64,000 bases of DNA from Candidatus Curtissbacteria bacterium (GTDB taxonomy: Bacteria; Patescibacteriota; Microgenomatia; Curtissbacterales; GWA2-41-24), in the NCBI GenBank assembly GCA_024654445.1, contig JANLHP010000022.1, positions 15,332-79,331 on the forward strand. The letters are read 5' to 3'. Of the stretch, positions 16,372-53,825 are shown piece after piece. Position 1 is the first letter of the stretch. The number at the start of each line of letters is the position of its first letter. Made by a program: the position numbers and the translations under genes. The notes beneath the pieces were generated by a model. It was not told the origin of the DNA, ran no database searches, and saw only the letters and a program-made list of their open reading frames with translations.

Positions 16372-16380
16372 AAAACGAAG

Positions 16381-24331: not shown

Positions 24332-24351
24332 TATTTCTTTTTTCGAACCTG

Positions 24352-24384: not shown

Positions 24385-24398
24385 AAAAACGAACTTTT

Positions 24399-26316: not shown

Positions 26317-26365
26317 CATCGACTTTGTAAAACTCGGGAAAACTATTGTACACCTCAAAAGGAAA

Positions 26366-32189: not shown

Positions 32190-32202
32190 ACTTTAAAAAA
32201 GA

Positions 32203-35763: not shown

Positions 35764-35789
35764 ATATCAGATCTTACTAGAAATTAAAA

Positions 35790-37699: not shown

Positions 37700-37701
37700 G
37701 T

Positions 37702-40205: not shown

Positions 40206-40212
40206 TTTCGAA

Positions 40213-41223: not shown

Positions 41224-42242
41224 TAATTAGATTTAAAGTAATTTTTTCTCTTCAAAAACTCTTCCGTGTTTTTCAAATACCAGTTCCATGTTTCCTTAAG
41301 CCCCTCATTAAGTGTCGTAGTGGGATTGTAGTGAATTATTTCTCTTGCAAGGGAAATGTCCATAACTCGTTTTGGAAAACCTGCCGGTTTAGAAGAATCA
41401 AATCGAAAGTTAAAATCAACAACGGTTCGCATGGTCGCAACTAGTTTTTTAATTGTTACTCCTTTACCACTGCCCAAATTTACAAAGCCTCCTTTTGTAC
41501 CAAAGTGAAGCGCTAAAATTACACCTTCGGCGACGTCTCGACTATAAGCAAAATCGCGTATAGCACTTCCGTCACCCCAAACAACAACAGGATCTTCTCC
41601 ATTGTGAATCCTGCTCATGAGGGAAGGGATAACCATTGCGTTCTCCGGGTCAAAGTTATCTCCCGGTCCGTAAACATTGCAAGGCCTGACAACGGCAAAG
41701 CTATCTAGGCCATACTGAGTTTTATAAGCTTTTATTTGTAATTCAGCCATTCGTTTTGCCCATCCCGGATACATGTCCATAGGGGGACCCTCGAATTCTT
41801 CACTTTCATTTTTTTCTTTAAAAACCGACGCGCTTGAATACGCCCCAATAGAACTTGTATACACAACCTTCTTAACACCATTAACTCTACAGGCTTCAAG
41901 AATATTAGTATTCATCATAAGAAGCGGTACGAAAAAACTTGCTGGCTTCGACTTTGTTACTTCGATTGATCCCTTAATCCCGGCAAGGTGAAAGGCAAAA
42001 TCTACTCTCTTTGCTATTTTTTTACAAAATTCAAAACTACTTAAATCTCCGTAAATATGGCGAGCATGTTTATTCACATTAATTTTATCGAGAGAAACAA
42101 TATTCACTTGAGCGCCTGCTCCAACTAAAATATCGACAACTTGTCTGCCTATTAGTCCCGTACCCCCGGTAACCAAGACCCTCCTGTTCCTAAAATTATT
42201 TAATACTTTTTTTTCTAACATGTTGCCCTTCTGTCCTCTCAA
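41223..42242 (-). CDS. NAD(P)-dependent epimerase/reductase of the GDP-L-fucose-synthase type, paralog of 38675..39661.
   Basis: VLVTGGTGLIGRQV and YTSSIGAY motifs, and a C-terminal substrate-binding domain. Confidence 0.65.
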   Translation of the reverse strand: MRGQKGNMLEKKVLNNFRNRRVLVTGGTGLIGRQVVDILVGAGAQVNIVSLDKINVNKHARHIYGDLSSFEFCKKIAKRVDFAFHLAGIKGSIEVTKSKPASFFVPLLMMNTNILEACRVNGVKKVVYTSSIGAYSSASVFKEKNESEEFEGPPMDMYPGWAKRMAELQIKAYKTQYGLDSFAVVRPCNVYGPGDNFDPENAMVIPSLMSRIHNGEDPVVVWGDGSAIRDFAYSRDVAEGVILALHFGTKGGFVNLGSGKGVTIKKLVATMRTVVDFNFRFDSSKPAGFPKRVMDISLAREIIHYNPTTTLNEGLKETWNWYLKNTEEFLKRKNYFKSN

Positions 42243-42263
42243 AAATGCGTGGGAAAATTACCT

Positions 42264-43037
42264 TTATTCAAATACAAAATACGAAGTTCTCGATGTAATG
42301 GGAAGCCTTCTTAATTTAATGTTGTTAAGGCCCAGTACTTCTTTTAGTGCGAGCGTTTCTCCCGGGGAATCATGATCATTAAGTTCGTCAAACGCCACTA
42401 CGCTTCCTTTTACAAGGTGGGGTAAAATTGCCTGCAGACAGTTTTTTGTTGGTTCATATATGTCGAAATCAAAATAGGCGAGCGCGACTATCGTCTCCGG
42501 ACGCTCTTTGAGATATTTAACTGTTTCGACCGAAGCATCTCCTTTTCGTAGCTCATATTTTTTAATATGTGAAAGAGGATTAGAGCCTTCTTGAAATTTC
42601 ATTACCCTGTCAAGATAGTCTTCATAGTTTTTAGTAACAGAAATATTGCCGGCAGTCATCAAGTCCGACCGTCCATCTTTCCTCGATATTCTTGGAAATC
42701 CGCTAAACGTATCAAAACCAACAATCAATTTGTGTCTATTAAAGGGTTCGTAAATTCCTCGCAGTGCTGAAAATATCGCCATATTGTGTCCCCACCTAGT
42801 GCCAAAATCCATAACCACTCCCTGCAGGTCAATTATCTGACGGTACAAAAAATCCATAAAAAGAATTCTGGACAAATCTTTAGAATTTAAAAATAATCCT
42901 AGATTTGAAAAAATTTGATCGTCCGGAATAGGGGAGCTCTTAAAGAGGTCGACAGCCCCCTCGTAGTTAACCGCCTCCTCGCCGCTTAAGTATCTTTTAA
43001 TTCCGACTTTCCCACTCATTCTGTAAATTTTTCGCAT
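42264..43037 (-). CDS. TylF/MycF-family SAM-dependent O-methyltransferase.
   Basis: GVVMDFGTRWGHN and FDTFSGFP motifs characteristic of the macrocin-O-methyltransferase family. Confidence 0.7.
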   Translation of the reverse strand: MRKIYRMSGKVGIKRYLSGEEAVNYEGAVDLFKSSPIPDDQIFSNLGLFLNSKDLSRILFMDFLYRQIIDLQGVVMDFGTRWGHNMAIFSALRGIYEPFNRHKLIVGFDTFSGFPRISRKDGRSDLMTAGNISVTKNYEDYLDRVMKFQEGSNPLSHIKKYELRKGDASVETVKYLKERPETIVALAYFDFDIYEPTKNCLQAILPHLVKGSVVAFDELNDHDSPGETLALKEVLGLNNIKLRRLPITSRTSYFVFE

Positions 43038-43062
43038 TATATCAAAGAGAGTAAAAAGAGAG

Positions 43063-44172
43063 TTAAATATATTCCCTTACATGCGCCGGTATTGGCCTTT
43101 TTCCCTCATACGCAATTACCCAGGCCCAATAACGTATCCTTCCACTAATCAAATCAAAATCATATTTATTCGAACCTTTGGCACGTACCAGCCTTACTGG
43201 TTTCAACAAACCTCCTTCTTTGATGACATCAGCAAGTTCCTTTGGGCTCGGATTAAAGTTGAGTTTATTCTCGAGGGCTTCATCAATAGTTTGGTAAACC
43301 CGACTATCCCGTTCACCATGCGCAGACACCCTTATCTTTTCAACCGGAACGCTCAGAAGCTTAGCAAAAAATGCTTTATCTATTTTGTCGTATTCACTTT
43401 TAGTCATTACAAACGAAGCAGCAAGAGAATTTTCGATAAGGTGACTTTCATTAAGCGTCATTGGTACTCCTGTGACGTAGCGATTTTTTGTTAACCAATT
43501 AAGAATTATTTGGGACCCGGATTTTCCGTATTTAATCGCCAACCCTTCAATTAATTCTTTCTGAAGAGGGCTCATAGAGCCAATTCGTCCCTGGTCCAAA
43601 GGACTAAAAGCAACAAGCTGCAAATTATTTTGTTGGCAATAATCGAAGACCCCGTTATATTCGACGGATCTCTCGAAAATATTATATTCCGATTGGATCG
43701 AAGCGAGCTTGATTTTTCCGAGTAACTTGCTTGCTCTTTGAAGCTCAGTTTGCGAGAAGTTACCAACACCAATATATCTTACCTTCCCGTCACCAACTAA
43801 ATCGGAAAGCGCCCTAAAGGTCTCCTCAAAAGATACAGAATAGTTCGGCCAGTGAACCTGATATAAGTCAATATAGTCTGTACTAAGCCTCTCAAGGCTC
43901 GCGTTGCAAGCCGCAATTACAGAGCCATAAGAACTGTGTTCTGGAGAAAATTTAGTACCAACAATTACGTGAGCTCTATTTTTTTTAATTGCGGCTCCAA
44001 CAAGCTTTTCGGCAAGTCCGTCTCCATAGCTCTCTGCCGTATCGATAAAAGTCATTCCAAGTGAAACCCCTTTCTGGAGTAAATAGATAAATTTCTTTTG
44101 GGAAACTTTACTAAAATCAAAACCCGTTCCTTGTCCAATTGGGGGAAGTTTTAAAAAACTACTCTTTTGCAT
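43063..44172 (-). CDS. Aldo/keto reductase fused to a C-terminal ParB/sulfiredoxin-like (ParBc) domain. The start is trimmed to MQKSSFLKL.
   Basis: An AKR barrel (FIDTAESYGDG...) followed by GLLKPVRLVRAKGSNKYDFDLISGRIRYWAWVIAYEGKRPIPAHV, which matches the ParB N-domain GxRR box. Confidence 0.65.
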   Translation of the reverse strand: MQKSSFLKLPPIGQGTGFDFSKVSQKKFIYLLQKGVSLGMTFIDTAESYGDGLAEKLVGAAIKKNRAHVIVGTKFSPEHSSYGSVIAACNASLERLSTDYIDLYQVHWPNYSVSFEETFRALSDLVGDGKVRYIGVGNFSQTELQRASKLLGKIKLASIQSEYNIFERSVEYNGVFDYCQQNNLQLVAFSPLDQGRIGSMSPLQKELIEGLAIKYGKSGSQIILNWLTKNRYVTGVPMTLNESHLIENSLAASFVMTKSEYDKIDKAFFAKLLSVPVEKIRVSAHGERDSRVYQTIDEALENKLNFNPSPKELADVIKEGGLLKPVRLVRAKGSNKYDFDLISGRIRYWAWVIAYEGKRPIPAHVREYI

Positions 44173-45094
44173 ATCTAGAAATTTCCTTGGTGAGGCTTCG
44201 GTTGTCAAGACCGTTTTGTAAAAGCAGCCATTCTCGGCTACCGAAAACGGAAAATTGTTTGTCTGCAACTGCTAGTTTGTTCAAAGTTATTTTATTTTTT
44301 GCTTGTGAAATTATGTCAGCAACTATAGTTCCTAAACCGCCGATTTCCGAGTTCTCTTCAATAGTTATTAATTTTGAGGATTTTTTTAAAATGTCAGCAA
44401 GCTCCATACTTACTGGTTTAAGTCTGAAAACATCGATAAGGCCAACATCTATGCCGCGAGTTACCAATTCCTCGCAGACTTCAAAAGCCCTCGACGTCAT
44501 ATAACCTGTGCTTATAACATTTACACTCCTGAGCCCTCTTAAAATACTAAAACCATTTTTGAAATCTCTACTGTTTTTATAAAAATTCGGAAAGCATCCT
44601 TTGTCGAGTCTTATATACGAAGGCCCATTCATTTTATATGAACTTTGAACACTAAATGCCGCCGTTTTATTATCACAAGGATTATAAATAGTAATTTCCG
44701 GAAGTATCCTCATCGCTCCAATATCCATAACTCCGTGGTGCGTTGGTCCGTCAAAGCTGAATGAAAAACCTGCGCCGACGCCAATAATGGTAACGGGCAA
44801 ATTCATACTACAGACGCTGAACTTTATCTGCTCGAAGCACCTCAGCGTAACGTATGAGCAAATACCGTAGCAAAAAACCTTTTTCCCGGAAGCAGCAAGC
44901 CCCGCCGAAACGTCAATCATATTTTGTTCAGCAACACCGATATTAATAAATTGCTCGGGGAAGTCTTTTTTGAATTTTCTTAAAACGAATGCGTCCAAAT
45001 CATCCGATATAAACAGAACGTTCTTGTCTCTTTTACCCAGATTGTATATTTCTTCAAAAAAAGCGTCACGGATGTCAACTTTAGAAACCTTCAC
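44159..45094 (-). CDS. Transketolase C-terminal subunit (Pyr plus C-terminal domains).
   Basis: Split-transketolase C-terminal section motifs (NIGVAEQNM, EDGPTHHG-like FDGPTHHG). Confidence 0.85.
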   Translation of the reverse strand: MKVSKVDIRDAFFEEIYNLGKRDKNVLFISDDLDAFVLRKFKKDFPEQFINIGVAEQNMIDVSAGLAASGKKVFCYGICSYVTLRCFEQIKFSVCSMNLPVTIIGVGAGFSFSFDGPTHHGVMDIGAMRILPEITIYNPCDNKTAAFSVQSSYKMNGPSYIRLDKGCFPNFYKNSRDFKNGFSILRGLRSVNVISTGYMTSRAFEVCEELVTRGIDVGLIDVFRLKPVSMELADILKKSSKLITIEENSEIGGLGTIVADIISQAKNKITLNKLAVADKQFSVFGSREWLLLQNGLDNRSLTKEISRYAKE

Positions 45095-45095
45095 A

Positions 45096-45965
45096 TCATC
45101 CCTCTATAATTTCTTTTCTCGCCGCCCTTAGCTCTTCTTCGGAAAGCGCCGCGTTATGCCACCTTAAATTATTTTCCATAAACGAAACACCCTTACCCTT
45201 TATTGTGTTAGCGATAACAACTACCGGCTTTTTAGAAAGTTCAATCTTGCCAAATGTGCCCAGAATCTCACCAAAATCGTGACCGTTAATTTCAAAAATA
45301 TTCCACCCAAAGCTCATCATTTTCTCCTTAAAGTTTTTATACAGTCCTTCGTCATCGATGACATCAGTTACCATTAATCTGTTTCTGTCTATAATTACGA
45401 CTAAATTATTGAGTTTGTAATCACTTGCGAAAATAACCGATTCCCAAATAGAACCCTCGAAAGGCTCAGAATCGCCGATAATAGTATATGCTCTGTAATT
45501 TTCCCCGTTTTTTTTAGCAGCGAGAGCAATGCCGGCAGCAACCCCAACCGAATGACCAATTGAACCCGTGTTAAAATCCACCCCGTTTATCCATGTTTCC
45601 AGCTGACCTCCAAGTCCACCATTTTCGCCGTAAGAGCTATACATCTCTTTTGAAATTATTCCTAAATCTAAAAAGATTGCGTAAAGAGCGGTACAGGCAT
45701 GTCCCTTACTTAAGATAAACCGATCCCTATTTTCCCAGTTCAAATTATTCGTTTTATAACGTAAAATTTTTCCGTAATACAAAGCCACCAGTAATTCGAC
45801 GCAAGAATAAGTTCCTCCAAGATGAGCCTTACCGCTTTTCGCGGCCGCGTTTAAAACCTCGAGTCGTACCCACCTTGATTTATCTTTAAGATCGGCTTTT
45901 AGGCCCGCAGTCGAAGACGAGGACCGCAAGCCCCGCTTCTTCGCAGAAAGGCTTTGCTTCTTCAT
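45096..45965 (-). CDS. Transketolase N-terminal subunit (TPP-binding).
   Basis: GHxG...GDSE...ESV TPP-binding motif (TIIGDSEPFEGSIWES). Confidence 0.85.
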   Translation of the reverse strand: MKKQSLSAKKRGLRSSSSTAGLKADLKDKSRWVRLEVLNAAAKSGKAHLGGTYSCVELLVALYYGKILRYKTNNLNWENRDRFILSKGHACTALYAIFLDLGIISKEMYSSYGENGGLGGQLETWINGVDFNTGSIGHSVGVAAGIALAAKKNGENYRAYTIIGDSEPFEGSIWESVIFASDYKLNNLVVIIDRNRLMVTDVIDDEGLYKNFKEKMMSFGWNIFEINGHDFGEILGTFGKIELSKKPVVVIANTIKGKGVSFMENNLRWHNAALSEEELRAARKEIIEG

Positions 45966-47683
45966 ATTTGCATGTCATTTGGACTAATAGGCTCGATAAG
46001 CTTTTGCTTACTGTCGCAAACTACTTCGACAAAAATTGGGTTGTCGTCAGCCATGATTTTTTTAAGTTTTTCACTAATATCCTGCCACCTGTCGATGATT
46101 TCATAGTTCAGGTCAAAAGCCTCGGCAACTCGCCTTAAATTTAAAACCGCTATCCCCGTTTTATCATCCGAGCCGATACGCCTCCCTTCAAAAAAAGTAT
46201 CCTGCCATCTCCTCATAGAAACATAGCCGCCATTATTGATTACAAAGACCTTTACATTAAGTCCATAATAAGAAATTGTCTTCAATTCCTGAATATTGAG
46301 CTCAAGTGAACCATCTCCCGTCACCGCAAGAATTTGAGAATTCTTATCTTCGACACTCGCGCCGATTGCCAAAGGAATACTAAGCCCCATGGCCCCAAAA
46401 GTGCCGGATGTTATTTCTCTTTGGCCGCTATTAAATTGCCACACCTGACCGCCTATGTAATAATTCGACCCTGAATCTGTCACCATAACGTGGTTTTTAT
46501 TGGCCATCTGATCCAATTTGTACATGAAGTAATAAAGATCAATTGGATTCCTTTTCATACTCTTGTCAACTGCCGGATATTTAGCTTTCAGTTCCTGACA
46601 ACTTTTGAGCCAAGCTCGTCTCTCAACTGAAATTTTCCTTGGAAGTTTTAGGTAAAGGTGCTCGATAAAATCTTTGACATCGTAGTTCAAAGAAATATCA
46701 ATTTTGACACCAGGTTTTTTCAGTTCATCGCCCTCTATGTCAACGACTGCTATTTTTGCGCGCCTGTCAAAGCAATCCAAGTTAGGACCGACAAAAGGAA
46801 TTGCGAGTCTGCTTCCAAGAACAAAAACAAAATCGGCCTGTTTCATAACTTGATTGGAAAAACGATTTCCCCTAATCCCCGCGAGCCCCATATTGTGCTC
46901 ATCACTATAAGGAAGAATATCTATACCCAGCCTGGAAAAAGCAACAGGCGCACCGCAGGAGTCGACAAGTTTTTTAAAAGATCCAATTGCTTTTCCTTGT
47001 CTAATTCCGTGTCCGGCGACAATTAGAGGCCTCTTTGATTTGCCAAACATCGTCAGTACTCTTGAAACATCTCTTTGGAGATTCCTGTTTAAATTGTTCT
47101 TGGGCACCTTAAAACCCTTAAGGCTGAGGGGGTCAACAAGGGCACTCTGGACATCGTGGGGAATGTCGAGCCAAACCGGGCCGGGTCTTCCACTTGTTGC
47201 CAAATAAAGCGCTTTTTCTAAATGATATCTGATTGAAGTTGGGTTTGTGATTATTTGTGCGTATTTTGTCATAGGTTTTACAACCGGGATAATATTAATT
47301 TCTGCCGTACCGAAACTCCTCAAGCTCTTAAGGTTAACCTTATGAGTTGTGTGTCTTAATTCCACTTGTCCTGAAATCACTAAAACAGGAGCAGCGTCTA
47401 CCCAAGCTTCTGCAAGACCGGGAATTGCGTTCGTTGCTCCCGGCCCCGCTGTTAGGCAAACCACGCCTGGGGACTGTTTTAACCTCGCATACGCTTCGGC
47501 CATCATCGGAGATGCTGCCTCATTTCGTACGCAATAGTAATTAATTTTTTTCTCCTTTGCTATCGCATCGTTCAAATACATAGCGCCGTAACCGGTCAAG
47601 AGAAAAATGTCTCTCATCCGGTTCTTGACTAAAAATTGCACGACATAATCGGCAACTCTAATTTTTTTGGGAGAATGCTTCAC
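45962..47683 (-). CDS. Thiamine-diphosphate-dependent enzyme of the acetolactate-synthase family (second copy).
   Basis: ALS three-domain layout with the TPP motif VTGDGSLELNIQEL...NNGGY. Confidence 0.8.
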   Translation of the reverse strand: MKHSPKKIRVADYVVQFLVKNRMRDIFLLTGYGAMYLNDAIAKEKKINYYCVRNEAASPMMAEAYARLKQSPGVVCLTAGPGATNAIPGLAEAWVDAAPVLVISGQVELRHTTHKVNLKSLRSFGTAEINIIPVVKPMTKYAQIITNPTSIRYHLEKALYLATSGRPGPVWLDIPHDVQSALVDPLSLKGFKVPKNNLNRNLQRDVSRVLTMFGKSKRPLIVAGHGIRQGKAIGSFKKLVDSCGAPVAFSRLGIDILPYSDEHNMGLAGIRGNRFSNQVMKQADFVFVLGSRLAIPFVGPNLDCFDRRAKIAVVDIEGDELKKPGVKIDISLNYDVKDFIEHLYLKLPRKISVERRAWLKSCQELKAKYPAVDKSMKRNPIDLYYFMYKLDQMANKNHVMVTDSGSNYYIGGQVWQFNSGQREITSGTFGAMGLSIPLAIGASVEDKNSQILAVTGDGSLELNIQELKTISYYGLNVKVFVINNGGYVSMRRWQDTFFEGRRIGSDDKTGIAVLNLRRVAEAFDLNYEIIDRWQDISEKLKKIMADDNPIFVEVVCDSKQKLIEPISPNDMQI

Positions 47684-48726
47684 TAGAAAGGTCCCCTAAA
47701 CTTATTTTCGTAAGTGAAAAACTCTTCGCCTTTCAGGTTAGTGGATTTAAGTCCTAATTTCTCCTCAACCGACCGTACTATCACCTCGGCATTTGGATAA
47801 AAAAGATTTTCCAAAGGTCTCGTGCACGGTGCCGGCGCGAAAGCGAACCCGAGGCGTTTTACTGGAGATTTTAAACTTGAAAAACTTTTTTCAGAAATGA
47901 TTGCCGCCACCTCGGCGCTAAAACCACAAAAAGTCCAGTCATAGTCAGCAACAATTACATGTCCTGTTTTTTCGACCGATTTTAGAATCGTCTCGCTGTC
48001 AAAAGGATAAATCGACCGGGCGTCTACTACTTCTGCACTAATTCCTCGCTTCTTCAAAATATTTGCGGCGTGGATTGCCTCCACATTCATATAAGATGTA
48101 GCAACAATCGTGATGTCACCTCCGCGCCTCAACACATTCGCTTTACCAAGCGGAACTAGCTTATTTTCATCGTCAACTTTATCCACAACGTCATAAAGCA
48201 TGCGATGCTCAAGAACGATAACCGGATTTTCGTCTCTTATTGCAGAGATCAAAAGCCCTTTCGCGTCATGGGGAGTAGTTGGCATCACAACTTTAAGTCC
48301 CGGTAAATGGGCAAAATATGATTGAAGGCTTTTACTGTGTTGATAAGCCTGACCCCACCCTTTTCCGATAATCGCCCTGATAACAAGCGGCACCTTAAGC
48401 TTACCCCCGGAACCGTAATGGAAACTCGACACCATATTTGCAAGCTGGTTCATTGCAAGCAGCAAAAAATCAACCCTTATGTGGACATTTATAGGTTTAA
48501 GTCCTGACACTGCTGCGCCTAGCCCAAAACCCACAAGGGAATCTTCACAAAGAGGAGTGCTAAAAACCCTATCGCCGAATTCCTCTTTCAGTCCAATCGT
48601 TGAACCGAAAATGCCTTTAAAGTCAGCAACATCTATTCCGTAAATAAAAACGTTTTTATCGCGCTTCATTTCTTCCTGAAGCCCTTCCCTTATTGCATCT
48701 CTATAACTGATTCTTCTACTTTTCAT
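47683..48726 (-). CDS. 2-oxoacid dehydrogenase E1 component beta-subunit homolog (transketolase-like Pyr and C-terminal domains). The start is trimmed to MKSRRISY.
   Basis: YRDAIREGLQEEM N-terminus typical of E1-beta, and a C-terminal TKC domain. Confidence 0.8.
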   Translation of the reverse strand: MKSRRISYRDAIREGLQEEMKRDKNVFIYGIDVADFKGIFGSTIGLKEEFGDRVFSTPLCEDSLVGFGLGAAVSGLKPINVHIRVDFLLLAMNQLANMVSSFHYGSGGKLKVPLVIRAIIGKGWGQAYQHSKSLQSYFAHLPGLKVVMPTTPHDAKGLLISAIRDENPVIVLEHRMLYDVVDKVDDENKLVPLGKANVLRRGGDITIVATSYMNVEAIHAANILKKRGISAEVVDARSIYPFDSETILKSVEKTGHVIVADYDWTFCGFSAEVAAIISEKSFSSLKSPVKRLGFAFAPAPCTRPLENLFYPNAEVIVRSVEEKLGLKSTNLKGEEFFTYENKFRGPF

Positions 48727-49684
48727 GAAATACGTTTTTATAAAGTTCCGCAGGATTAGGGAAAGCTGAATTCCTGGCTTTTTTAAAGGATCTTTCGACC
48801 GCAAGATCAATGTCCTTGCAAATTTTATCCAGTTCCCCCTTGCCGACCCCCAGCTTTTTGAGTTTTGACGCCAGAATTTTTAAAGGATCGACTTTAAGCC
48901 ATTTCTGGTACTCCTCTTGTGATCTGTAACCGGCACTAAAATCTTCGTGGGTACCTACATGTTCCAGATATCTATAGTACTTTAGGTAAATAAATGCTGG
49001 GGTCTGTTTTGCAAAAATTGCATTTTTAGCACGGCTTGCAAGATTAAAGACGACTTCAGCGTCCGTCGAAGTGGAAGAAAAAACGGAACAGTTAAACCTT
49101 GAAACAATAGCCGAAATCGATTTATATCCATGTCTAAGCGCGGGTGGCGTATGAACGGCAAAACCATTGTCTTCGCAAACAAAGAGAACAGGAAGCTTAA
49201 AAAGGCTTGCCATATTTAAACTCTCCCAAAAACTACCTTCATCTATTGCCCCATCCCCAAAAAAAACGGCGCTTACGCCTCTTGTTCCTTTCTTTTTCAG
49301 CGCATAAGCTGACCCAACCGCAACAGGAATAGTGCTTGCAACAACCGCAGAAGTTGCAACCAAACCCCGATCCGGATCAGACAGATGCATCGAACCACCT
49401 TTACCGCGAACAACCCCGCTCTCCCGCCCAAACATTTCAGAAAAAAACCTAAAAGTATCTCCGCTTCTTGCCAGATAAAGGCCATGACTTCTATAAGTTC
49501 CAAAAAGAAGATCAAGGCCGGATAGGGCGCTGGCTACCCCAGAAACAATTGCCTCTTCACCCATAGACATGTGCATGGGTGTTTTCATTTCATTACTATC
49601 GTAGACTTCTATAATTTTTTCCTCAGCTCTTCTGATAAGATAGGCTTTTTCGAAGAGTTTAAGGTTTAAATTTTTGCGAGTCAT
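48716..49684 (-). CDS. 2-oxoacid (pyruvate) dehydrogenase E1 component alpha-subunit homolog (TPP-binding).
   Basis: GDGAIDEGSFWESLNMA TPP motif and the YRSHG... E1-alpha motifs. Confidence 0.8.
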   Translation of the reverse strand: MTRKNLNLKLFEKAYLIRRAEEKIIEVYDSNEMKTPMHMSMGEEAIVSGVASALSGLDLLFGTYRSHGLYLARSGDTFRFFSEMFGRESGVVRGKGGSMHLSDPDRGLVATSAVVASTIPVAVGSAYALKKKGTRGVSAVFFGDGAIDEGSFWESLNMASLFKLPVLFVCEDNGFAVHTPPALRHGYKSISAIVSRFNCSVFSSTSTDAEVVFNLASRAKNAIFAKQTPAFIYLKYYRYLEHVGTHEDFSAGYRSQEEYQKWLKVDPLKILASKLKKLGVGKGELDKICKDIDLAVERSFKKARNSAFPNPAELYKNVFHEK

Positions 49685-50674
49685 TTATCTTGCATAGTAA
49701 TCTCTCCAGTAATCGAGCATATCAAGAAGCGTTTTTTCAAAGGGAATTTCAGCCTTCCAACCGGTTTCGCGACTAAACTTACCAACAGCAGGAATTTGAA
49801 GTGTGACATCAGAAGGCCTCAACCTTTTTTTGTCAACTATGATTTTTATATCATCTCGCGTCGACATTTTTATTAGCTTATTTAACATCTGCCCAATAGT
49901 CATCGTTTCAACTCCGCCAATATTATAAACTTCGCCTGCTCTACACCTGGTAACCAAAAGCCAGTAAGCGCGAACAGCATCCCTCACGTCCATAAAAGTT
50001 CTGACGCTTTTTAAATTTCCGACATACACAGTTGGCTTTTGTTTGCCAGCCTCGATGGCTGCAACTTGCTTTGCGAAATTCGAGGGCGCAAAAACTTCAC
50101 CCCTTCTTGGACCCTCGTGTGTAAACATGCGTGTTCTTATCGCCCTAATTTTCCAAGACGACCAATACTGAAAACCCAACATGTCCTCTGCAACTTTAGA
50201 AACCGCGTAAGGCGATGCCGGCCTAAAAGGATTAGTTTCGACAATAGGTATTTCGCTTTTCAAAACCTGTCCGTAAACTTCGGAAGAGCTGCAAACATGA
50301 ATAATTGGGTCATAACCCTTTTCATCTTTTAGCTGTTTAACATTCTCCAAAAGATTGCCCGTTCCAATAACATTCGCTTCAAGCGTCCCAATTGGAGCGA
50401 TAAAACTAAAATCTACATAAGATTGCGCGGCAAGATGAAAAATAACGTCGGGCTTATGTTTTAAAAGTACACCGCGAGTGGAAAAGGGATCAACCAAATC
50501 GCCGTATTCTAAAATTACACGATCCAAAACGTGCTTTATGTTATCTTTTGGAGATCTCCACCTGACGAATCCGACAACTTCAACTCCCGGCTGGTTCTCT
50601 AGAATATAATCCACCATATGACTTCCCACAAATCCGGTTATACCCGTAATTAATACTTTTTTGATTTGTCCCAT
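49685..50674 (-). CDS. GDP-mannose 4,6-dehydratase family enzyme (Gmd/Rmd/GDP-heptose dehydratase type).
   Basis: ITGITGFVGSH, SSSEVYG, and SPYAVSK...THEGPRRGE motifs of the GMD family. Confidence 0.75.
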   Translation of the reverse strand: MGQIKKVLITGITGFVGSHMVDYILENQPGVEVVGFVRWRSPKDNIKHVLDRVILEYGDLVDPFSTRGVLLKHKPDVIFHLAAQSYVDFSFIAPIGTLEANVIGTGNLLENVKQLKDEKGYDPIIHVCSSSEVYGQVLKSEIPIVETNPFRPASPYAVSKVAEDMLGFQYWSSWKIRAIRTRMFTHEGPRRGEVFAPSNFAKQVAAIEAGKQKPTVYVGNLKSVRTFMDVRDAVRAYWLLVTRCRAGEVYNIGGVETMTIGQMLNKLIKMSTRDDIKIIVDKKRLRPSDVTLQIPAVGKFSRETGWKAEIPFEKTLLDMLDYWRDYYAR

Positions 50675-50747
50675 TGTCTAAAGATTTGAAAGGCAGAAAG
50701 TGATCTTGCTAACATTAGTTTTAAAAACTAAATATATACCCATTTTG

Positions 50748-52031
50748 TTAATCATTCAATGAATGTCTCTGCCATTTAAGCATGGGCCTTACGACGCCAG
50801 GATAAAATCCTGTTGAGTGTCCGCGAACCGAGTTTCCTTCAGTCGGATCAACTACATCAAAAACAACCGCGTCAGGAACATCGACCTCTCGCGTCTTGCC
50901 ACTCTCCTCATCAACGACAGTAACCCTAGCAGAAAAAACTCCTTCAGATAAAAAATTTCCCGGAATCACACATCTACTTTTATATTTTCCACTTTTTTTC
51001 ATTCTGATTTTCCTGTCTATATCCTCAGCAGAATTAAAAATGGTTAGGCCTTCACTATTTATAATTTGTAAATTGCATCCGACCCAGCGGTCCCCATTCG
51101 CAGAAAAGCTCTGCTTATTTTTCAAAACCTCAAATTCGACTTCTACGGTTATAGGTTTTCGTATATCAAAAGTATTAGACAAGCGATTATGCTTATCCAA
51201 GGCTTTGACGTTGATAAGCCGCACAACATTATTCGCAAACATACGGCTCGCAACCCTTTTTTTAAGTGAAGCATTGCTCCTTGTTTCTTCCAAATACCTC
51301 GAGACTATTTTTTCAGCGTTGCCGTCTGCAACAATTTTTCCGTCTTTTAAATAGATAACGCGCCGACAGATATTTATAACTGCAGGCAGATTATGAGAAA
51401 CAAAAAGGACAGTTCTGCCCTGCTTACTTACATCCTGCATTTTCCCCAGACTTTTCGATTGAAACGCTGCATCACCCACCGAAAGAACCTCATCGACAAT
51501 AAGTATTTCGGGTTCCAAATGAGCAGCCACAGCAAAAGCCAGCCTTGTATACATTCCAGAAGAATAATGTTTAACCGGCAGATCTAAAAATTTCTCCATC
51601 TCGGCAAAAGAAACAATCTCGTCAAATTTAGACTTTATTTCCAATCGAGTCATGCCCAAAATGGAACCATTTAAAAAAATATTCTCTCGTCCTGTCAGCT
51701 CCGGATGAAATCCGGTCCCAACTTCAAGCAAACTCGCAGTACGCCCCCTGAGTGTAATTTTTCCTTTTGTGGGAGGAGTAATCTGAGAAAGAATCTTCAG
51801 TAGCGTGCTTTTGCCGGCGCCATTTTTACCGATAATACCGACAACTTCGCCAGCGCCAACGTTGAAAGAAACGTTCTTTAGAGGCCAGAACTCATCTTCT
51901 CTTTTTGAACTAAAAACAGATAAAGGGTTTTTGGCAATTTGAGCAATCGAGTCACGAAGTGAATAATATTGTTGTCTTTCCGCAACCCTATATTTTTTAG
52001 AAACCGATTTAACTTCGATAATCGAACTCAT
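50748..52031 (-). CDS. wzt: ABC transporter ATP-binding protein of polysaccharide exporters (Wzt-like) with a C-terminal glycan-binding extension.
   Basis: Walker A GKNGAGKST, signature YSSGM, Walker B LIVDE, and a roughly 180 aa C-terminal beta-rich domain. Confidence 0.85.
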   Translation of the reverse strand: MSSIIEVKSVSKKYRVAERQQYYSLRDSIAQIAKNPLSVFSSKREDEFWPLKNVSFNVGAGEVVGIIGKNGAGKSTLLKILSQITPPTKGKITLRGRTASLLEVGTGFHPELTGRENIFLNGSILGMTRLEIKSKFDEIVSFAEMEKFLDLPVKHYSSGMYTRLAFAVAAHLEPEILIVDEVLSVGDAAFQSKSLGKMQDVSKQGRTVLFVSHNLPAVINICRRVIYLKDGKIVADGNAEKIVSRYLEETRSNASLKKRVASRMFANNVVRLINVKALDKHNRLSNTFDIRKPITVEVEFEVLKNKQSFSANGDRWVGCNLQIINSEGLTIFNSAEDIDRKIRMKKSGKYKSRCVIPGNFLSEGVFSARVTVVDEESGKTREVDVPDAVVFDVVDPTEGNSVRGHSTGFYPGVVRPMLKWQRHSLND

Positions 52032-52894
52032 GCAATATCGGCAAAGAATCTTTCTGTCACCCTAAAATAAGTGAGACCAATAACAAACACGATTAACGAA
52101 AAAACTGAGGATATAAAAAGCACGCCCAAGTCTACCCTGCCTGATCCGGAAAGGACTATCCTCATGGTCTCAATTACACCAGTCATTGGGTTGAAGGCTA
52201 AAATAGGTCTAAAAGAATCCCTTACAACCGCAGAGGGATAAATAACGGGAGTCAAAAAAAGCATAGATTGAATAAAAAAAGGCAAAATGTATCTAACGTC
52301 CCTGTACCTCACATTAAATGAAGCAAGAAAAAGGCCAATTCCGGAAGAAGTCAAAAAAATAATCAGAATTACAATTGGCAAATAAATAAAAATGGTAGGC
52401 GAAGGAACGAACCCAAAATAAAAAGTAACAATCAAAACAACCAAAAACGCAATCGCAAAATCAACAAACGAGGTAATGATTGCTGAAATTGGAAGTATTT
52501 CCCTCGGAAAATAAACCTTCTTTATTATATTGACATTTTCGACCATCGAATTACTCGCTGCAGTTACACTTGCGGAAAAAAATATCCAAAATACAAGACC
52601 AATAAATACAAATAATTCATAAGGCAAATTTCCGGAAGGAATATTGGCAAGCCTGCCAAAAAAAATAGTAAATATTCCTGTCGTTGCCAGGGGTTGGAAA
52701 ATAACCCAAATTATTCCAAGGAAAGTCTGCTTATAGCGTACTTTGATGTCTCTCCAGGAAAGAATAAAAAAAAGTTCTCTATATCGCCACAATTCTTTTA
52801 AACTTACCAAATGCCATTTTTGTTTTGGTGCAATTGTAAGCTCATAATTTTTCATTGTCGGTGTTAGCCTTCTTGTTATTGTGCTCTTAACCAT
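52028..52894 (-). CDS. wzm: ABC-2 type polysaccharide export permease (Wzm-like).
   Basis: Six TM helices and the WRDIKVRYKQTFLGIIW N-terminal signature of Wzm/KpsM. It overlaps wzt by 4 nt. Confidence 0.85.
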   Translation of the reverse strand: MVKSTITRRLTPTMKNYELTIAPKQKWHLVSLKELWRYRELFFILSWRDIKVRYKQTFLGIIWVIFQPLATTGIFTIFFGRLANIPSGNLPYELFVFIGLVFWIFFSASVTAASNSMVENVNIIKKVYFPREILPISAIITSFVDFAIAFLVVLIVTFYFGFVPSPTIFIYLPIVILIIFLTSSGIGLFLASFNVRYRDVRYILPFFIQSMLFLTPVIYPSAVVRDSFRPILAFNPMTGVIETMRIVLSGSGRVDLGVLFISSVFSLIVFVIGLTYFRVTERFFADIA

Positions 52895-53823: not shown

Positions 53824-53825
53824 AT

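What the first reader, a model, noticed from the sequence alone, without database searches (positions are those of the whole stretch)
43063..50674. Second branched-sugar module: Gmd-family dehydratase with PDH-E1 alpha/beta homologs, a split transketolase and a second ALS-like enzyme
An operon upstream of wzm/wzt carries a GDP-mannose 4,6-dehydratase-family enzyme, pyruvate dehydrogenase E1 alpha and E1 beta homologs, an acetolactate-synthase-like enzyme, split transketolase N and C subunits, and an AKR-ParB-like fusion. E1 alpha/beta homologs without E2/E3 partners inside deoxysugar clusters are known to install two-carbon branches (AviB1/AviB2 for eurekanate in avilamycin; AlmDI/DII for aldgarose). 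The co-occurrence of three different TPP C-C bond-forming systems in one operon, after a 4-keto-6-deoxy (or heptose) intermediate, points to an unusually elaborate branched or higher-carbon sugar.
Basis: partly seen in the sequence, partly recalled or inferred. Interest (0 to 1): 0.8.

Follow-up and report, generated by a model that had tools for sequence, protein, structure and literature searches.

The report
GDP-heptose sugar-branching operon, three thiamine enzymes
A candidate-phylum bacterium carries a conserved, uncharacterised operon that most likely adds extra carbon branches to a seven-carbon nucleotide sugar, using three different thiamine-dependent enzymes, to build an unusual cell-surface sugar.

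Summary
Seven co-directional, tightly packed minus-strand genes at 43063-50674 encode an SDR dehydratase, an E1 alpha/beta pair, an ALS-like enzyme, a split transketolase and an AKR with a C-terminal ParB/Srx-fold domain.

Corrections:
- The dehydratase is closest to the solved GDP-D-glycero-D-manno-heptose 4,6-dehydratase, not Gmd.
- The ALS-like enzyme is YerE/JanthE-like, a ketone-accepting carboligase.
- The module lies downstream of wzm/wzt in transcription.
- It continues to 35790 with a CalS11-like O-methyltransferase, two GDP-fucose-synthase-like SDRs, an RmlC-like epimerase, FkbM and the GDP-heptose genes.

No E2/E3 gene occurs in the 64 kb window, and none recurs among the neighbour genes of about 80 related loci.

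The cassette dehydratase-E1a-E1b-...-SDR-RmlC-SDR-HddA-HddC recurs across many phyla (CPR, Omnitrophota, Planctomycetota, Chloroflexota, Proteobacteria, archaea). The unit (YerE-like)-TK-AKR/ParB-methyltransferase is an optional, portable sub-module.

The cassette transketolases carry natural substitutions at positions that engineering uses to switch transketolase to non-phosphorylated acceptors and non-hydroxylated donors.

Best reading: ThDP-dependent C-branching or extension of GDP-6-deoxy-4-keto-heptose for a Wzm/Wzt-exported glycan. The chemistry class is known. The substrate, the combination, the distribution and the AKR-ParB fusion appear undescribed. No biochemistry was done.

The parts
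52028..52894 (-). Wzm, the ABC-2 permease of a polysaccharide exporter. It is transcribed just before the module.
   Evidence: ABC2_membrane 3e-22. Wzm/Wzt homologues precede the cassette in about 10-15 related loci.
50748..52031 (-). Wzt, the ATPase, with a weak C-terminal Wzt_C-like domain.
   Evidence: ABC_tran 5e-24; Wzt_C 20.6 bits, below its cutoff.
49685..50674 (-). NDP-heptose 4,6-dehydratase homologue (extended SDR). It would make the keto-sugar acceptor.
   Evidence: Best solved relative is 7US5, GDP-D-glycero-D-manno-heptose 4,6-dehydratase: 295 bits, E 4e-87, against about 129 bits for GMD. Below the NCBIfam cutoffs for gmd and rmlB. The SSSE...YAVSK motif is visible in the translation. 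Homologues of 50-75% identity are adjacent to E1a in 50 of 56 loci.
48716..49684 (-). E1 alpha-type ThDP subunit (alpha-KADH2 type).
   Evidence: E1_dh 3e-50. Only 126 bits to BCKDH/PDH E1a structures. PDH_E1_alph_y scores 242 bits against a cutoff of 394. The family signature YYRYLEHV is invariant in 32 homologues. 100% identical to MCR4324879.1.
47683..48726 (-). E1 beta-type subunit. The probable start is Met at 48726; the longest ORF runs to 48810.
   Evidence: Transket_pyr + Transketolase_C. 236 bits to G. stearothermophilus PDH E1b, with the active-site His in the QHSKS motif kept. PRK09212 scores 313.8 bits against a cutoff of 321.
45962..47683 (-). YerE/JanthE-like ThDP carboligase (the 'second ALS-like' enzyme).
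   Evidence: TPP_enzyme N/M/C. Best solved relative is JanthE, 8RPH, at 322 bits against 232 for plant AHAS (PMC12188165). The acolac_lg model scores 342 bits against a cutoff of 538. It lies directly upstream of TKN in every locus that has it.
45096..45965 (-). Split transketolase, N-terminal (PP-domain) subunit.
   Evidence: Transketolase_N 2e-29. 174 bits to the C. hydrogenoformans split TK N chain, 6YAK. The His of the 'GHP' motif is replaced by Gln. All 10 TKNs that sit next to a YerE-like gene have Gln or Glu there, while 24 of 27 others keep His.
44159..45094 (-). Split transketolase, C-terminal (Pyr + C domain) subunit.
   Evidence: Transket_pyr + Transketolase_C. 158 bits to 6YAJ. THAG is replaced by VGAG (His to Gly) and GRS by DKG (Arg to Lys). 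Both changes are near-universal among 32 cassette TKCs; one retains Arg.
43063..44172 (-). Aldo-keto reductase fused to a C-terminal ParB/Srx-fold domain. The domain spans about 43066-43389.
42264..43037 (-). CalS11-family nucleotide-sugar O-methyltransferase. It has no Pfam hit above threshold.
   Evidence: 213 bits, E 5e-62 to CalS11, a TDP-rhamnose 3'-O-methyltransferase. Present in 19 of 28 TK-containing loci and 2 of 28 TK-free loci.
41223..42242 (-). GDP-fucose-synthase-like extended SDR; candidate C4 reductase or epimerase-reductase.
   Evidence: Epimerase 5e-49; GDPFucSynFcl 166 bits against a cutoff of 500. About 121 bits to GFS structures. Homologues of about 70% identity occur in 43 of 56 loci.
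40213..41223 (-). FkbM-family methyltransferase.
   Evidence: Methyltransf_21 2e-18. Same position in the syntenic locus L084.
39639..40205 (-). RmlC-like cupin 3,5-epimerase.
   Evidence: dTDP_sugar_isom 1e-38. The rmlC model scores 123 bits against a cutoff of 156. Present in 35 of 56 loci.
38675..39718 (-). Second GFS/GME-like extended SDR.
   Evidence: Epimerase 5e-44. 117 bits to GFS and 114 bits to GDP-mannose 3,5-epimerase. Present in 44 of 56 loci.
37702..38700 (-). GHMP kinase; HddA-like heptose-7-phosphate kinase.
   Evidence: GHMP_kinases_N/C. The best NCBIfam model is HddA at 129 bits, well below its cutoff of 600.
36392..37699 (-). Fusion of a sugar-1-phosphate nucleotidylyltransferase (HddC/ManC-like) with a GmhB-like HAD phosphatase.
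   Evidence: NTP_transferase + HAD. GmhB scores 149 bits against a cutoff of 178. The N-terminal part scores 143 bits to Man-1-P guanylyltransferase and 89 bits to HddC.
35790..36395 (+). GmhA-like sedoheptulose-7-phosphate isomerase, transcribed divergently.
   Evidence: SIS_2 1.5e-19. The gmhA model scores 171 bits against a cutoff of 209. Same place and orientation in L084.

Best explanation
The block is the tailoring core of a dedicated nucleotide-heptose pathway. The pathway makes a C-branched and/or carbon-extended 6-deoxyheptose for a glycan exported by Wzm/Wzt.

Proposed steps, with their basis:
1. GmhA, the HddA-like kinase and the GmhB/HddC fusion convert sedoheptulose-7-phosphate to GDP-D-glycero-D-manno-heptose. 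This rests on homology below curated cutoffs.
2. The dehydratase at 49685-50674 makes GDP-6-deoxy-4-keto-heptose. This rests on strong homology to a characterised, solved enzyme.
3. The E1 alpha/beta heterotetramer works without E2/E3. It decarboxylates pyruvate and adds the hydroxyethyl-ThDP carbanion to a sugar carbonyl, giving an acetyl branch on a tertiary alcohol. This is inferred by analogy with the alpha-KADH2 enzymes AviB1/B2, Pau11/12, AlmDI/DII and KbDH.
4. The portable sub-module YerE-like enzyme, split transketolase, AKR-ParB/Srx and CalS11-like methyltransferase performs a further acyloin-type C-C coupling, an NAD(P)H reduction of the new ketone and an O-methylation. The acceptor may be the acetyl ketone just created (sequential build-up of one side chain), which I slightly favour. 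It may instead be the same 4-keto sugar, giving a parallel product.
5. The transketolase does not use sugar phosphates. Its phosphate-binding His and Arg are replaced, and its donor-hydroxyl-binding His is Gln.
6. The ParB/Srx domain probably holds the nucleotide handle of the substrate. This is inferred from the fold only.
7. The RmlC-like epimerase, the two GFS-like SDRs and FkbM set the ring stereochemistry and add methyl groups.

The regiochemistry, the order of steps and the donor substrates are not determined.
For: Anatomy:
- Seven abutting genes with strong family matches.
- The dehydratase is closest to the GDP-heptose 4,6-dehydratase 7US5, and the heptose-activation genes are in the same operon.

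No E2/E3:
- None in 64 kb, and gaps between ORFs are about 340 nt or less.
- None among the neighbour families found in two or more related loci.

Conservation:
- A genome scan returned 170 relatives, of which 80 loci were kept. They come from CPR, Omnitrophota, Planctomycetota, Chloroflexota, Proteobacteria, Acidobacteriota and archaea, plus the isolates Heliobacterium mobile and Magnetococcales bacterium HHB-1 and a Desulfatirhabdium butyrativorans MAG.
- In 56 well-flanked loci: E1b 56, dehydratase 50, GFS-like SDRs 43-44, RmlC 35, a heptose-activation gene 39, TK 28.
- A 14-gene syntenic copy at 50-75% identity exists on an unrelated 345-kb contig, L084.

Sub-module logic:
- The CalS11-like methyltransferase is in 19 of 28 TK-containing loci and 2 of 28 TK-free loci.
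- The YerE-like gene is always immediately 5' of TKN.
- E1-free loci carry two TK pairs (L086, L090). One locus has the YerE-like/TK/AKR-ParB/methyltransferase unit without the dehydratase, E1 or heptose genes (L088).

Transketolase active site:
- His to Gly and Arg to Lys in TKC, in 31 of 32 cassette TKCs.
- The 'GHP' His becomes Gln or Glu in 10 of 10 TKNs next to a YerE-like gene, and Ile in 3 TK pairs, two of them in the E1-free loci L086 and L090 and one in L076, which also has E1.
- These are the positions engineered in G. stearothermophilus transketolase: H102L for pyruvate donors, H462I/R521H for non-phosphorylated aldoses (PMC11997939).

Precedent:
- Alpha-KADH2, YerE-like and split-TK enzymes are the three ThDP superfamilies known or proposed to add acyl groups to keto sugars (PMC12247030; PMC4753412).
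- JanthE is the closest solved relative of the ALS-like protein.

Tailoring enzymes: CalS11 homology and the ParB/Srx fold.
Against: - No enzyme activity, product or glycan structure is known for any member of this cassette. All functions are assigned by homology and gene context.
- The heptose-activation genes and the E1 subunits score below the NCBIfam curated cutoffs.
- If the branch is placed on C4, the roles of the two conserved GFS-like, putative C4-reductase SDRs are hard to explain. Canonical transketolase acceptors are aldehydes, not ketones. Both points could mean the carbonyl attacked is elsewhere.
- I could not obtain AviB1, KbDH or other actinomycete alpha-KADH2 sequences, so I could not test whether this E1 clade groups with them.
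- The rest of the genome (the contig is 97.9 kb; the window is 64 kb) was not available to exclude E2/E3 elsewhere.
- The mapping of the transketolase substitutions to E. coli and G. stearothermophilus residue numbers rests on motif equivalence, not on a direct alignment to those proteins.
Confidence: 0.58

Rival explanations
1. Parallel products. The three ThDP enzymes do not act on one molecule. Each adds its own acyl group to the same GDP-4-keto-6-deoxyheptose, so the operon supplies two or three different branched sugars to the polymer.
For: - E1-only cassettes (28 of 56 loci) and TK-only cassettes (L086, L090) both exist, so each system can work alone.
- The window encodes many glycosyltransferases and several other sugar pathways.
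Against: - In the window the module has only one extra ketoreductase (AKR-ParB) for three acyl-forming enzymes.
- The short-chain SDR that accompanies E1-only cassettes (11 of 28) is less frequent when TK is present (7 of 28) and is absent here.
- The YerE-like gene is never found apart from the TK, which suggests coupled rather than independent steps.
Confidence: 0.2
2. Chain extension rather than branching. An SDR oxidises a side-chain hydroxyl of the heptose (for example C7) to an aldehyde. The transketolase, and possibly E1, then extends the chain by two carbons at that aldehyde. This would give a linear nonose or higher sugar that is then reduced by the AKR and O-methylated.
For: - Aldehydes are the canonical transketolase acceptors. 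Engineered TK variants extend non-phosphorylated aldoses by C2, with substitutions at the same positions that are altered here (PMC11997939).
- Two conserved GFS-like SDRs lack an obvious role if C4 becomes a tertiary alcohol.
Against: - No dedicated primary-alcohol oxidase is evident.
- The dehydratase that creates a 4-keto group is the gene most tightly linked to E1ab (50 of 56 loci).
- Every characterised or proposed sugar-pathway relative of E1ab and YerE attacks a ring ketone (PMC12247030).
Confidence: 0.12
3. Donor synthesis. One or two of the ThDP enzymes build an unusual 2-oxo acid or acyloin off the sugar. Only one enzyme then couples this preformed side chain to the keto sugar, as the aldolase ErwI/ErwJ does for ErwE in erwiniose synthesis.
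For: - Precedent for preformed functionalised donors exists (PMC9306805).
- The strict adjacency of the YerE-like gene and TKN, and the co-varying His to Gln change, suggest that one enzyme feeds the other.
- Locus L078 adds DmpF/DmpG to the cassette.
Against: - E1ab alone, with the dehydratase and no other ThDP enzyme, is the commonest arrangement.
- The AKR carries a nucleotide-binding-type domain, and the methyltransferase is of a nucleotide-sugar type (CalS11). Both argue that the later steps occur on the nucleotide sugar.
Confidence: 0.07
4. Housekeeping or catabolic genes sitting in a glycan cluster by chance. On this reading E1ab is part of a pyruvate or acetoin dehydrogenase, and the split transketolase is the pentose-phosphate enzyme, for example supplying sedoheptulose-7-phosphate for heptose synthesis.
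For: - Sources annotate homologues as pyruvate or acetoin dehydrogenase E1.
- Split transketolases are genuine pentose-phosphate enzymes in some bacteria (6YAJ).
- Sedoheptulose-7-phosphate is the pathway's precursor.
Against: - No E2/E3 in the window, and none recurrent in about 80 related loci.
- The same gene order recurs across unrelated phyla, including large genomes that should have their own PDH and TK.
- E1a is only 126 bits from solved E1a proteins and is below the equivalog cutoff.
- The TK lacks two phosphate-binding residues and co-occurs with the AKR-ParB and the methyltransferase. It is duplicated in E1-free loci.
Confidence: 0.03

Closest known systems
Alpha-KADH2-type sugar-branching E1 alpha/beta pairs of actinomycete antibiotic pathways: AviB1/AviB2 (avilamycin eurekanate), Pau11/Pau12 (paulomycose), AlmDI/DII (aldgarose), KbDH-alpha/beta (kibdelomycin)
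   Same: - A two-subunit E1-type ThDP enzyme with no E2/E3 partner.
- Encoded next to an NDP-sugar 4,6-dehydratase in a deoxysugar cluster.
- Followed by a ketoreductase (PMC4753412; PMC12247030).
   Different: - The precursor here is a GDP-heptose rather than a TDP-hexose or pentose.
- The product goes to a Wzm/Wzt-exported cell-surface glycan, not an antibiotic.
- The hosts are CPR, Omnitrophota, Planctomycetota, archaea and others, not actinomycetes.
- The pair co-occurs with two further ThDP carboligase systems.
- The sequence relationship to AviB1 or KbDH could not be tested.
YerE-like carboligases: YerE (yersiniose), ErwE (erwiniose), MMAR_2332 (caryophyllose), JanthE
   Same: - Three-domain decarboxylase-family ThDP enzyme.
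- Closer to JanthE (322 bits) than to any acetohydroxyacid synthase (232 bits).
- Encoded in a surface-glycan cluster.
   Different: - The known members act on CDP-3,6-dideoxy-4-keto-glucose (PMC9306805). This one sits in a GDP-heptose operon.
- It is strictly coupled to a split transketolase.
- It has the canonical GDG ThDP motif, not JanthE's CDG (PMC12188165).
Split-gene transketolases proposed to transfer a hydroxyacetyl group to a keto sugar in miharamycin and amipurimycin biosynthesis
   Same: Separate N and C subunits, encoded inside a sugar-tailoring cluster rather than with pentose-phosphate genes (PMC12247030).
   Different: - That role is still unproven, and the 13 predicted examples are all from Streptomycetes.
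- Here the TK is in cell-envelope glycan loci of many phyla.
- It always travels with an AKR-ParB/Srx fusion and usually with a CalS11-like methyltransferase.
- It shows defined active-site substitutions.
Campylobacter jejuni GDP-heptose modification pathways (C4,6-dehydratase, C3/C5 epimerases, C4 reductases)
   Same: The same enzyme set is present: GmhA, HddA, GmhB and HddC types, a 4,6-dehydratase (7US5 homologue), an RmlC-like epimerase and GFS-like reductases (PMC10680097).
   Different: The 20 enzymes catalogued for C. jejuni include no ThDP enzyme. Here C-C bond-forming enzymes are inserted directly after the dehydratase.
ParB/Srx-fold nucleotide-binding proteins: KorB, PadC, sulfiredoxin and the serine kinases SerK/SbnI
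   Different: - It is fused to an aldo-keto reductase in a sugar pathway.
- It is below the Pfam ParB_N threshold.
- It forms a very small family of its own, with 374 representatives among 1.84 billion.
- Its ligand and role are unknown.

Membership tests
Pyruvate/acetoin/2-oxoacid dehydrogenase complex E1 (heterotetrameric) | E1 alpha (E1_dh) and E1 beta (Transket_pyr + Transketolase_C) subunits with a ThDP/Mg motif and active-site histidines. | tested here: met
   Pfam domains are present. GDG...N, YRYLEH and QHSKS are visible in the alignments to solved E1s.
Pyruvate/acetoin/2-oxoacid dehydrogenase complex E1 (heterotetrameric) | Scores above the curated equivalog cutoffs for PDH E1 alpha and beta. 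| tested here: not met
   Alpha scores 242 bits against a cutoff of 394. Beta scores 313.8 against 321.
Pyruvate/acetoin/2-oxoacid dehydrogenase complex E1 (heterotetrameric) | Encoded with E2 (lipoyl acyltransferase) and E3 partners. | tested here: not met
   - No such family among any ORF of the 64-kb window.
- None among the recurrent neighbour families of 80 related loci.
- The rest of the genome was not available.
Alpha-KADH2 sugar-branching enzymes (AviB1/B2, AlmDI/DII, KbDH) | An E1ab pair without E2/E3, adjacent to NDP-sugar 4,6-dehydratase and ketoreductase genes in a glycan or deoxysugar cluster. | tested here: met
   True in the window. Dehydratase adjacency holds in 50 of 56 loci.
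Alpha-KADH2 sugar-branching enzymes (AviB1/B2, AlmDI/DII, KbDH) | Phylogenetic grouping with characterised members. | not testable with these tools
   No AviB1, Pau11, AlmDI or KbDH sequence could be retrieved, and Krug et al. 2024 is not held.
Alpha-KADH2 sugar-branching enzymes (AviB1/B2, AlmDI/DII, KbDH) | Pyruvate-dependent acetyl transfer to a keto sugar. | not testable with these tools
   This requires an enzyme assay.
YerE-like ketone-accepting carboligases | Decarboxylase-family three-domain ThDP enzyme, closer to characterised YerE-like enzymes than to AHAS/ALS. | tested here: met
   JanthE (8RPH) 322 bits against the best AHAS at 232 bits. Below the ALS equivalog cutoff, 342 against 538.
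YerE-like ketone-accepting carboligases | Acts on an NDP-4-keto sugar. | not testable with these tools
   Only the gene context supports this.
Transketolase (pentose-phosphate enzyme) | PP, Pyr and C domains with a ThDP/Mg motif and the catalytic DG(P)TH His. | tested here: met
Transketolase (pentose-phosphate enzyme) | Conserved residues that bind the substrate phosphate (E. coli His461 and Arg520 equivalents) and the donor C1 hydroxyl (His100 equivalent). | tested here: not met
   - His to Gly and Arg to Lys in TKC, in 31 of 32 cassette homologues.
- His to Gln in TKN.
- The residue equivalence is by motif.
GDP-D-glycero-D-manno-heptose 4,6-dehydratase | Extended SDR with a Ser/Thr-x-Glu and YxxxK catalytic set, and closest similarity to the characterised enzyme. 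| tested here: met
   7US5 at 295 bits, E 4e-87, more than twice the Gmd score. SSSE and YAVSK are in the translation.
GDP-D-glycero-D-manno-heptose 4,6-dehydratase | Co-encoded GDP-heptose supply (GmhA, HddA, GmhB, HddC). | tested here: inconclusive
   All four are present as the best-matching models, but all score below the curated cutoffs: 171/209, 129/600, 149/178 and 89/300.
CalS11-type nucleotide-sugar O-methyltransferase | Full-length sequence similarity to CalS11. | tested here: met
   213 bits, E 5e-62, covering residues 19-253 of 257.
ParB/Srx fold | Pfam ParB_N above the gathering threshold. | tested here: not met
   21.8 bits against a cutoff of 26.3; 4 of 40 homologues hit at E of 0.01 or better.
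ParB/Srx fold | Three-dimensional fold match. | tested here: met

The most novel reading that the evidence does not exclude
The operon is an iterative 'umpolung assembly line' on a nucleotide sugar. After 4,6-dehydration of GDP-heptose, E1ab, the YerE-like enzyme and a naturally re-tooled transketolase each add an acyl anion equivalent in turn. Each uses the ketone created by the previous step as its acceptor. This would build a multi-carbon, multiply branched side chain, giving a C11 or larger sugar that has never been described. The side chain is then reduced by an AKR whose private ParB/Srx domain clamps the GDP handle or phosphorylates the product, and it is capped by O-methylation. This would be the first natural transketolase shown to use a non-phosphorylated nucleotide-sugar acceptor. 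It would also be a widespread envelope sugar of CPR bacteria, Omnitrophota, Planctomycetota and some archaea.
Probability: 0.2. Interest if true: 0.85.

Novelty: new variant of a known kind. Interest (0 to 1): 0.62.

Why it matters
- ThDP-dependent branching of keto sugars is known from a handful of antibiotic pathways and a few O-antigens. The transketolase version has never been shown in vitro.
- This cassette would extend that chemistry to GDP-heptoses. It would place it in the cell envelopes of a very broad range of mostly uncultivated lineages, including small-genome CPR bacteria that devote tens of kilobases to it.
- It offers ready-made natural enzymes for making chiral tertiary alcohols: E1ab, YerE-like enzymes, and transketolases carrying the same substitutions that engineers introduced.
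- It also defines a small new ParB/Srx-fold domain family fused to an aldo-keto reductase.
- Carriers exist in isolate genomes (Heliobacterium mobile DSM 6151 and Magnetococcales bacterium HHB-1; the Desulfatirhabdium butyrativorans locus comes from a MAG), and the substrate GDP-D-glycero-D-manno-heptose can be made enzymatically. The hypothesis is therefore directly testable.

Tried and rejected
- **Exact-sequence look-ups** of the window's E1a, dehydratase and P0001 found no contig on record. The source was identified through the homology search and the cluster look-up instead.
- **Coxiella O-antigen lead.** I recalled E1-like genes in its heptose region. The phase-variation paper contains no mention of transketolase, pyruvate dehydrogenase, acetoin or thiamine, so I dropped the lead.
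- **Literature searches** linking heptose to E1, transketolase or ThDP branching found nothing relevant. Krug et al. 2024 and the amipurimycin paper are not held. I therefore cannot say whether that bioinformatic survey already lists this cassette.
- **Promoter and terminator scan** of 35000-54000 gave counts close to the shuffled expectation and is uninformative.
- **Plasmid search** for close E1a relatives found only matches of 39% identity or less. The best are Azospirillum plasmid loci where E1ab sits with an SDR and a DegT aminotransferase in an LPS-like cluster. This is a more distant analogue, not the same cassette.
- **Housekeeping PDH or TK** was considered and rejected on context and active-site grounds (see the rival explanations).
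- **Lipoyl-E2 dependence** cannot be inferred from the active-site histidines of E1. Both are conserved, and they would be needed for carboligation as well, so this test is uninformative.

Full report
**What is there**

The window is one very long minus-strand glycan-biosynthesis cluster, running from roughly 58089 to 4110. The finding's coordinates hold seven abutting genes. Their Pfam and NCBIfam assignments are:
- 49685-50674: extended-SDR dehydratase.
- 48716-49684: E1 alpha.
- 47683-48810: E1 beta, probably starting at 48726.
- 45962-47683: three-domain ThDP enzyme of the ALS type.
- 45096-45965: transketolase N subunit.
- 44159-45094: transketolase C subunit.
- 43063-44268: aldo-keto reductase with about 100 extra C-terminal residues. 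The real start is at 44172, since the 369-aa form is identical to NCBI protein MCR4324874.1.

The source is a Candidatus Curtissbacteria MAG, which belongs to the Patescibacteria/Microgenomates, on a contig of 97,899 bp.

wzm (52028-52894) and wzt (50748-52031) are on the same strand. The module is thus transcribed after them, not before.

**Refining the parts**

- The dehydratase is not a Gmd equivalog (160 bits against a cutoff of 415). Its best solved relative by far is the C. jejuni GDP-D-glycero-D-manno-heptose 4,6-dehydratase 7US5, at 295 bits against about 129 for Gmd.
- The ALS-like protein is closest to JanthE (8RPH, 322 bits, against 232 for plant AHAS). JanthE is a YerE-like enzyme that couples 2-oxo acids to ketones (PMC12188165).
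- The next gene downstream, 42264-43037, has no Pfam hit above threshold. It is a clear CalS11 homologue; CalS11 is a TDP-rhamnose 3'-O-methyltransferase (213 bits).
- After it come:
  - a GDP-fucose-synthase-like SDR;
  - an FkbM methyltransferase;
  - an RmlC-like epimerase;
  - a second GFS/GME-like SDR;
  - a GHMP kinase whose best model is HddA;
  - an HddC/ManC-like nucleotidyltransferase fused to GmhB;
  - a divergent GmhA.
- The heptose-activation genes all match the right models best, but all score below the curated cutoffs.
- A profile of this domain finds only 374 cluster representatives among 1.84 billion. Most full-length hits (about 350-385 aa) carry it at the C-terminus, consistent with the AKR fusion; about 140-146 aa proteins also occur, and other short hits may be gene fragments.

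**E2/E3**

None of the roughly 59 ORFs of 120 aa or more in the window belongs to a lipoyl, 2-oxoacid acyltransferase or dihydrolipoamide dehydrogenase family. Gaps between genes are too short, at about 340 nt or less, to hide further genes.

E1 alpha is only distantly related to solved E1 alphas (126 bits). Both subunits fall below the PDH equivalog cutoffs. Both active-site histidines are retained. That does not discriminate between the two roles.

**Comparative genomics**

E1 alpha has thousands of relatives at 55-66% identity. A scan of one genome per species returned 170 relatives. The 80 loci kept come from Levy-, Davies-, Saccharibacteria and other CPR groups, Omnitrophota, Planctomycetota, Dehalococcoidia, Proteobacteria, Acidobacteriota, Elusimicrobia, Nanoarchaeota and Thermoplasmata. 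They also include the isolates Heliobacterium mobile DSM 6151 and Magnetococcales bacterium HHB-1, and a Desulfatirhabdium butyrativorans MAG.

I labelled the ORFs of these loci by BLASTP against the window's proteins. This reveals a canonical order:

dehydratase - E1a - E1b - [YerE-like] - [TKN - TKC] - [AKR-ParB - CalS11-like] - GFS-like SDR - RmlC - SDR - HddA - HddC/GmhB - GmhA.

Among the 56 loci with adequate flanks:

| Gene | Loci (of 56) |
|---|---|
| E1b | 56 |
| Dehydratase | 50 |
| GFS-like SDRs | 43 and 44 |
| RmlC-like | 35 |
| Any heptose-activation gene | 39 |
| Transketolase | 28 |
| YerE-like | 8 |

The CalS11-like gene is in 19 of 28 TK-containing loci and 2 of 28 TK-free loci. 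A short-chain SDR is more common in TK-free loci (11 against 7).

Neighbour ORFs with no counterpart in the window fall into these recurrent groups:
- B12-radical-SAM enzymes, in 33 loci.
- An unannotated family of about 313 or 145 aa, in 33 loci.
- A NUDIX hydrolase immediately upstream of E1a, in 19 loci.
- Glycosyltransferases, methyltransferases, flippases and TPR proteins.

No E2/E3 family appears among the families found in two or more loci.

**Variants that inform the mechanism**

- L084, a 345-kb metagenomic contig, reproduces the window's 14-gene order, including the YerE-like gene and FkbM, at 50-75% identity.
- L086/L087 and L090 lack E1ab but carry two split-TK pairs. L086 also has two AKR-ParB genes.
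- L088 has NUDIX, YerE-like, TKN, TKC, AKR-ParB and CalS11-like genes with no dehydratase, E1 or heptose genes nearby.

The TK-AKR/ParB-methyltransferase unit is therefore portable, and E1ab can be replaced by a TK pair. The YerE-like gene always lies immediately 5' of TKN: 7 of 7 earlier loci, plus the window, L084 and L088.

**Transketolase active site**

I aligned the subunits to the C. hydrogenoformans split TK. The window's TKC has VGAG where the reference has THAG (His to Gly), and DKG where it has GRS (Arg to Lys). The DGPTH catalytic motif is kept. Both changes are near-universal among 32 cassette TKCs; one retains Arg.

In TKN the His of the GHP motif is Gln. Across 37 TKNs:
- It is Gln or Glu in 10 of 10 TKNs that sit next to a YerE-like gene.
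- It is His in 24 of 27 others.
- It is Ile in three pairs: L086 pair 1 and L090 pair 2, which are in the E1-free loci, and L076, which also has E1.

By motif equivalence, these are the positions engineered in G. stearothermophilus TK. H102L is needed for pyruvate and aliphatic 2-oxo acid donors. S385D/H462I/R521H is used for non-phosphorylated aldoses (PMC11997939). The equivalence rests on my own knowledge of TK numbering; I did not make a direct alignment to that enzyme.

This argues that the cassette TKs do not use sugar phosphates. It also suggests that the Ile-type and Gln-type enzymes use non-hydroxylated donors. That would explain why a TK pair can stand in for E1ab.

**Mechanism**

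- Shown by strong homology: a nucleotide-heptose 4,6-dehydratase creates a 4-keto-6-deoxy sugar.
- Inferred by analogy and context: E1ab, with no E2/E3, adds a C2 unit from pyruvate to a sugar carbonyl. This is what is proposed for AviB1/B2 and Pau11/12, supported by knockouts and feeding for the aldgamycin enzyme, and shown on sugar analogues for KbDH (PMC4753412; PMC12247030).
- Inferred: the YerE-like/TK/AKR-ParB/methyltransferase unit performs a further acyloin coupling, a ketoreduction and an O-methylation.
- Inferred from fold only: the ParB/Srx domain binds the nucleotide handle.

Whether the couplings are sequential on one side chain or parallel on the same keto sugar is open. I slightly favour sequential. 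The window has one dedicated ketoreductase for three acyl-forming enzymes, the short SDR tends to disappear when TK is present, and the YerE-like gene never occurs without TK. Chain extension at an aldehyde remains a real alternative. It would give a role to the two conserved GFS-like SDRs.

**Comparison with what is known, and novelty**

The 2025 review lists the decarboxylase/YerE-like, alpha-KADH2 and transketolase superfamilies as the only ones known or proposed to use ketone acceptors. It states that alpha-KADH2 and TK examples come mainly from antibiotic pathways. It reports that the 13 predicted TKs are all split-gene enzymes of Streptomycetes and that none has been characterised. The 20 enzymes catalogued for C. 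jejuni GDP-heptose tailoring include no ThDP enzyme. No held paper combines heptose with ThDP-dependent branching.

The chemistry class is therefore known. The features that appear undescribed are:
- the GDP-heptose substrate;
- the combination of all three systems in one operon;
- the AKR-ParB/Srx fusion;
- the natural TK substitutions;
- the wide distribution in envelope-glycan loci of uncultivated phyla.

One caveat applies: the primary bioinformatic survey (Krug et al. 2024) could not be read.

I rate this a new variant of a known kind, with an interest of about 0.6.

Noticed in passing
window 19363-28083 (minus strand): The 'first' branched-sugar module looks like an erwiniose-type pathway. 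It contains:
- a YerE-like enzyme (22547-24331, 38% identical to the second one);
- 4-hydroxy-2-oxovalerate aldolase (24399-25469, 390 bits against a cutoff of 286);
- acetylating acetaldehyde dehydrogenase (25450-26358, 374 against 282);
- a CDP-glucose-type dehydratase (26366-27349);
- glucose-1-phosphate cytidylyltransferase (27313-28083, 277 against 300);
- RfbH, the 3-dehydrase (19363-20664, 677 against 423).

This matches ErwE + ErwI + ErwJ acting on CDP-3,6-dideoxy-4-keto-glucose (PMC9306805).
   Followed up: partly
window 28070-34571 (minus strand): A full-length, unsplit transketolase-like protein (28070-30007, 645 aa, 32% identical to the split TKN). It sits next to a CMP-sugar-type cytidylyltransferase, an aldehyde dehydrogenase, a short SDR, a KdsC-like HAD and a NeuB homologue. 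This is a fifth ThDP enzyme in the cluster, possibly in an ulosonic-acid pathway.
   Followed up: no
window 6706-17376 (minus strand): A pseudaminic/legionaminic-acid-like set: a PseB-like dehydratase (16381-17376), a DegT aminotransferase (13914-15071), a GNAT-NeuB fusion (6706-8358), a CMP-transferase (10796-11581), a HisH/HisF-like amidotransferase pair (9398-10820), and another AKR and an SDR.
   Followed up: no
window 56689-58089, 15055-16371, 8261-9388, 5177-6709, 2623-4119, 61983-63581: Six long ORFs (375-532 aa) inside or beside the cluster have no Pfam match, even at E of 5 or better. They may be polymerases, ligases or novel glycosyltransferases.
   Followed up: partly
related loci, e.g. 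L043:14930-16381, L086:14582-17230: B12-binding radical-SAM enzymes occur in 33 of about 80 related loci, often two per locus and sometimes fused to glycosyltransferase domains. They are absent from the window. This suggests additional C-methylation of the same sugar in other lineages.
   Followed up: partly
related loci, e.g. L072:9396-9998, L090:1435-2085, L088:5837-6382: A NUDIX hydrolase lies immediately upstream of E1a, or of TKN, in 19 loci. It is reminiscent of the GDP-sugar hydrolases found in GDP-sugar operons. It is absent from the window.
   Followed up: no
related loci, e.g. L008:13803-14741 (312 aa): A recurrent unannotated family of about 313 aa, with a related form of about 145 aa, is present in 33 loci between TKC and the AKR. 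It has no significant Pfam hit. Proteins of about 140-146 aa with the ParB/Srx-like domain also exist. I did not check whether the two sets coincide.
   Followed up: partly
L086/L087 and L090 (JGI metagenome contigs): These are E1-free versions of the cassette with two split-TK pairs. One pair has Ile at the GHP-His position. One TKC is about 634-657 aa, about twice the usual length; the added part was not examined beyond a faint methyltransferase hit in L090.
   Followed up: partly
L038 (Candidatus Saganbacteria MAG): Two E1 alpha/beta pairs lie in one glycan locus, one 56/61% and one 37/42% identical to the window's pair.
   Followed up: no
L091 = Azospirillum lipoferum 4B plasmid AZO_p6, 33485-58402: A cultured bacterium carries a more distant E1a/E1b pair (39/44% identity). 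The pair sits between an NAD(P)-oxidoreductase and a DegT aminotransferase in an LPS-like locus that also holds a WavE family protein, glycosyltransferases and a 423-aa HAD-IIIA fusion. It may be a branched amino-sugar pathway.
   Followed up: partly
window 50748-52031: Wzt has a C-terminal extension with a sub-threshold Wzt_C match (20.6 bits against a cutoff of 30.4). In other systems this domain recognises a chain-terminating cap. The methylated branched heptose could be such a cap; this is speculation.
   Followed up: no
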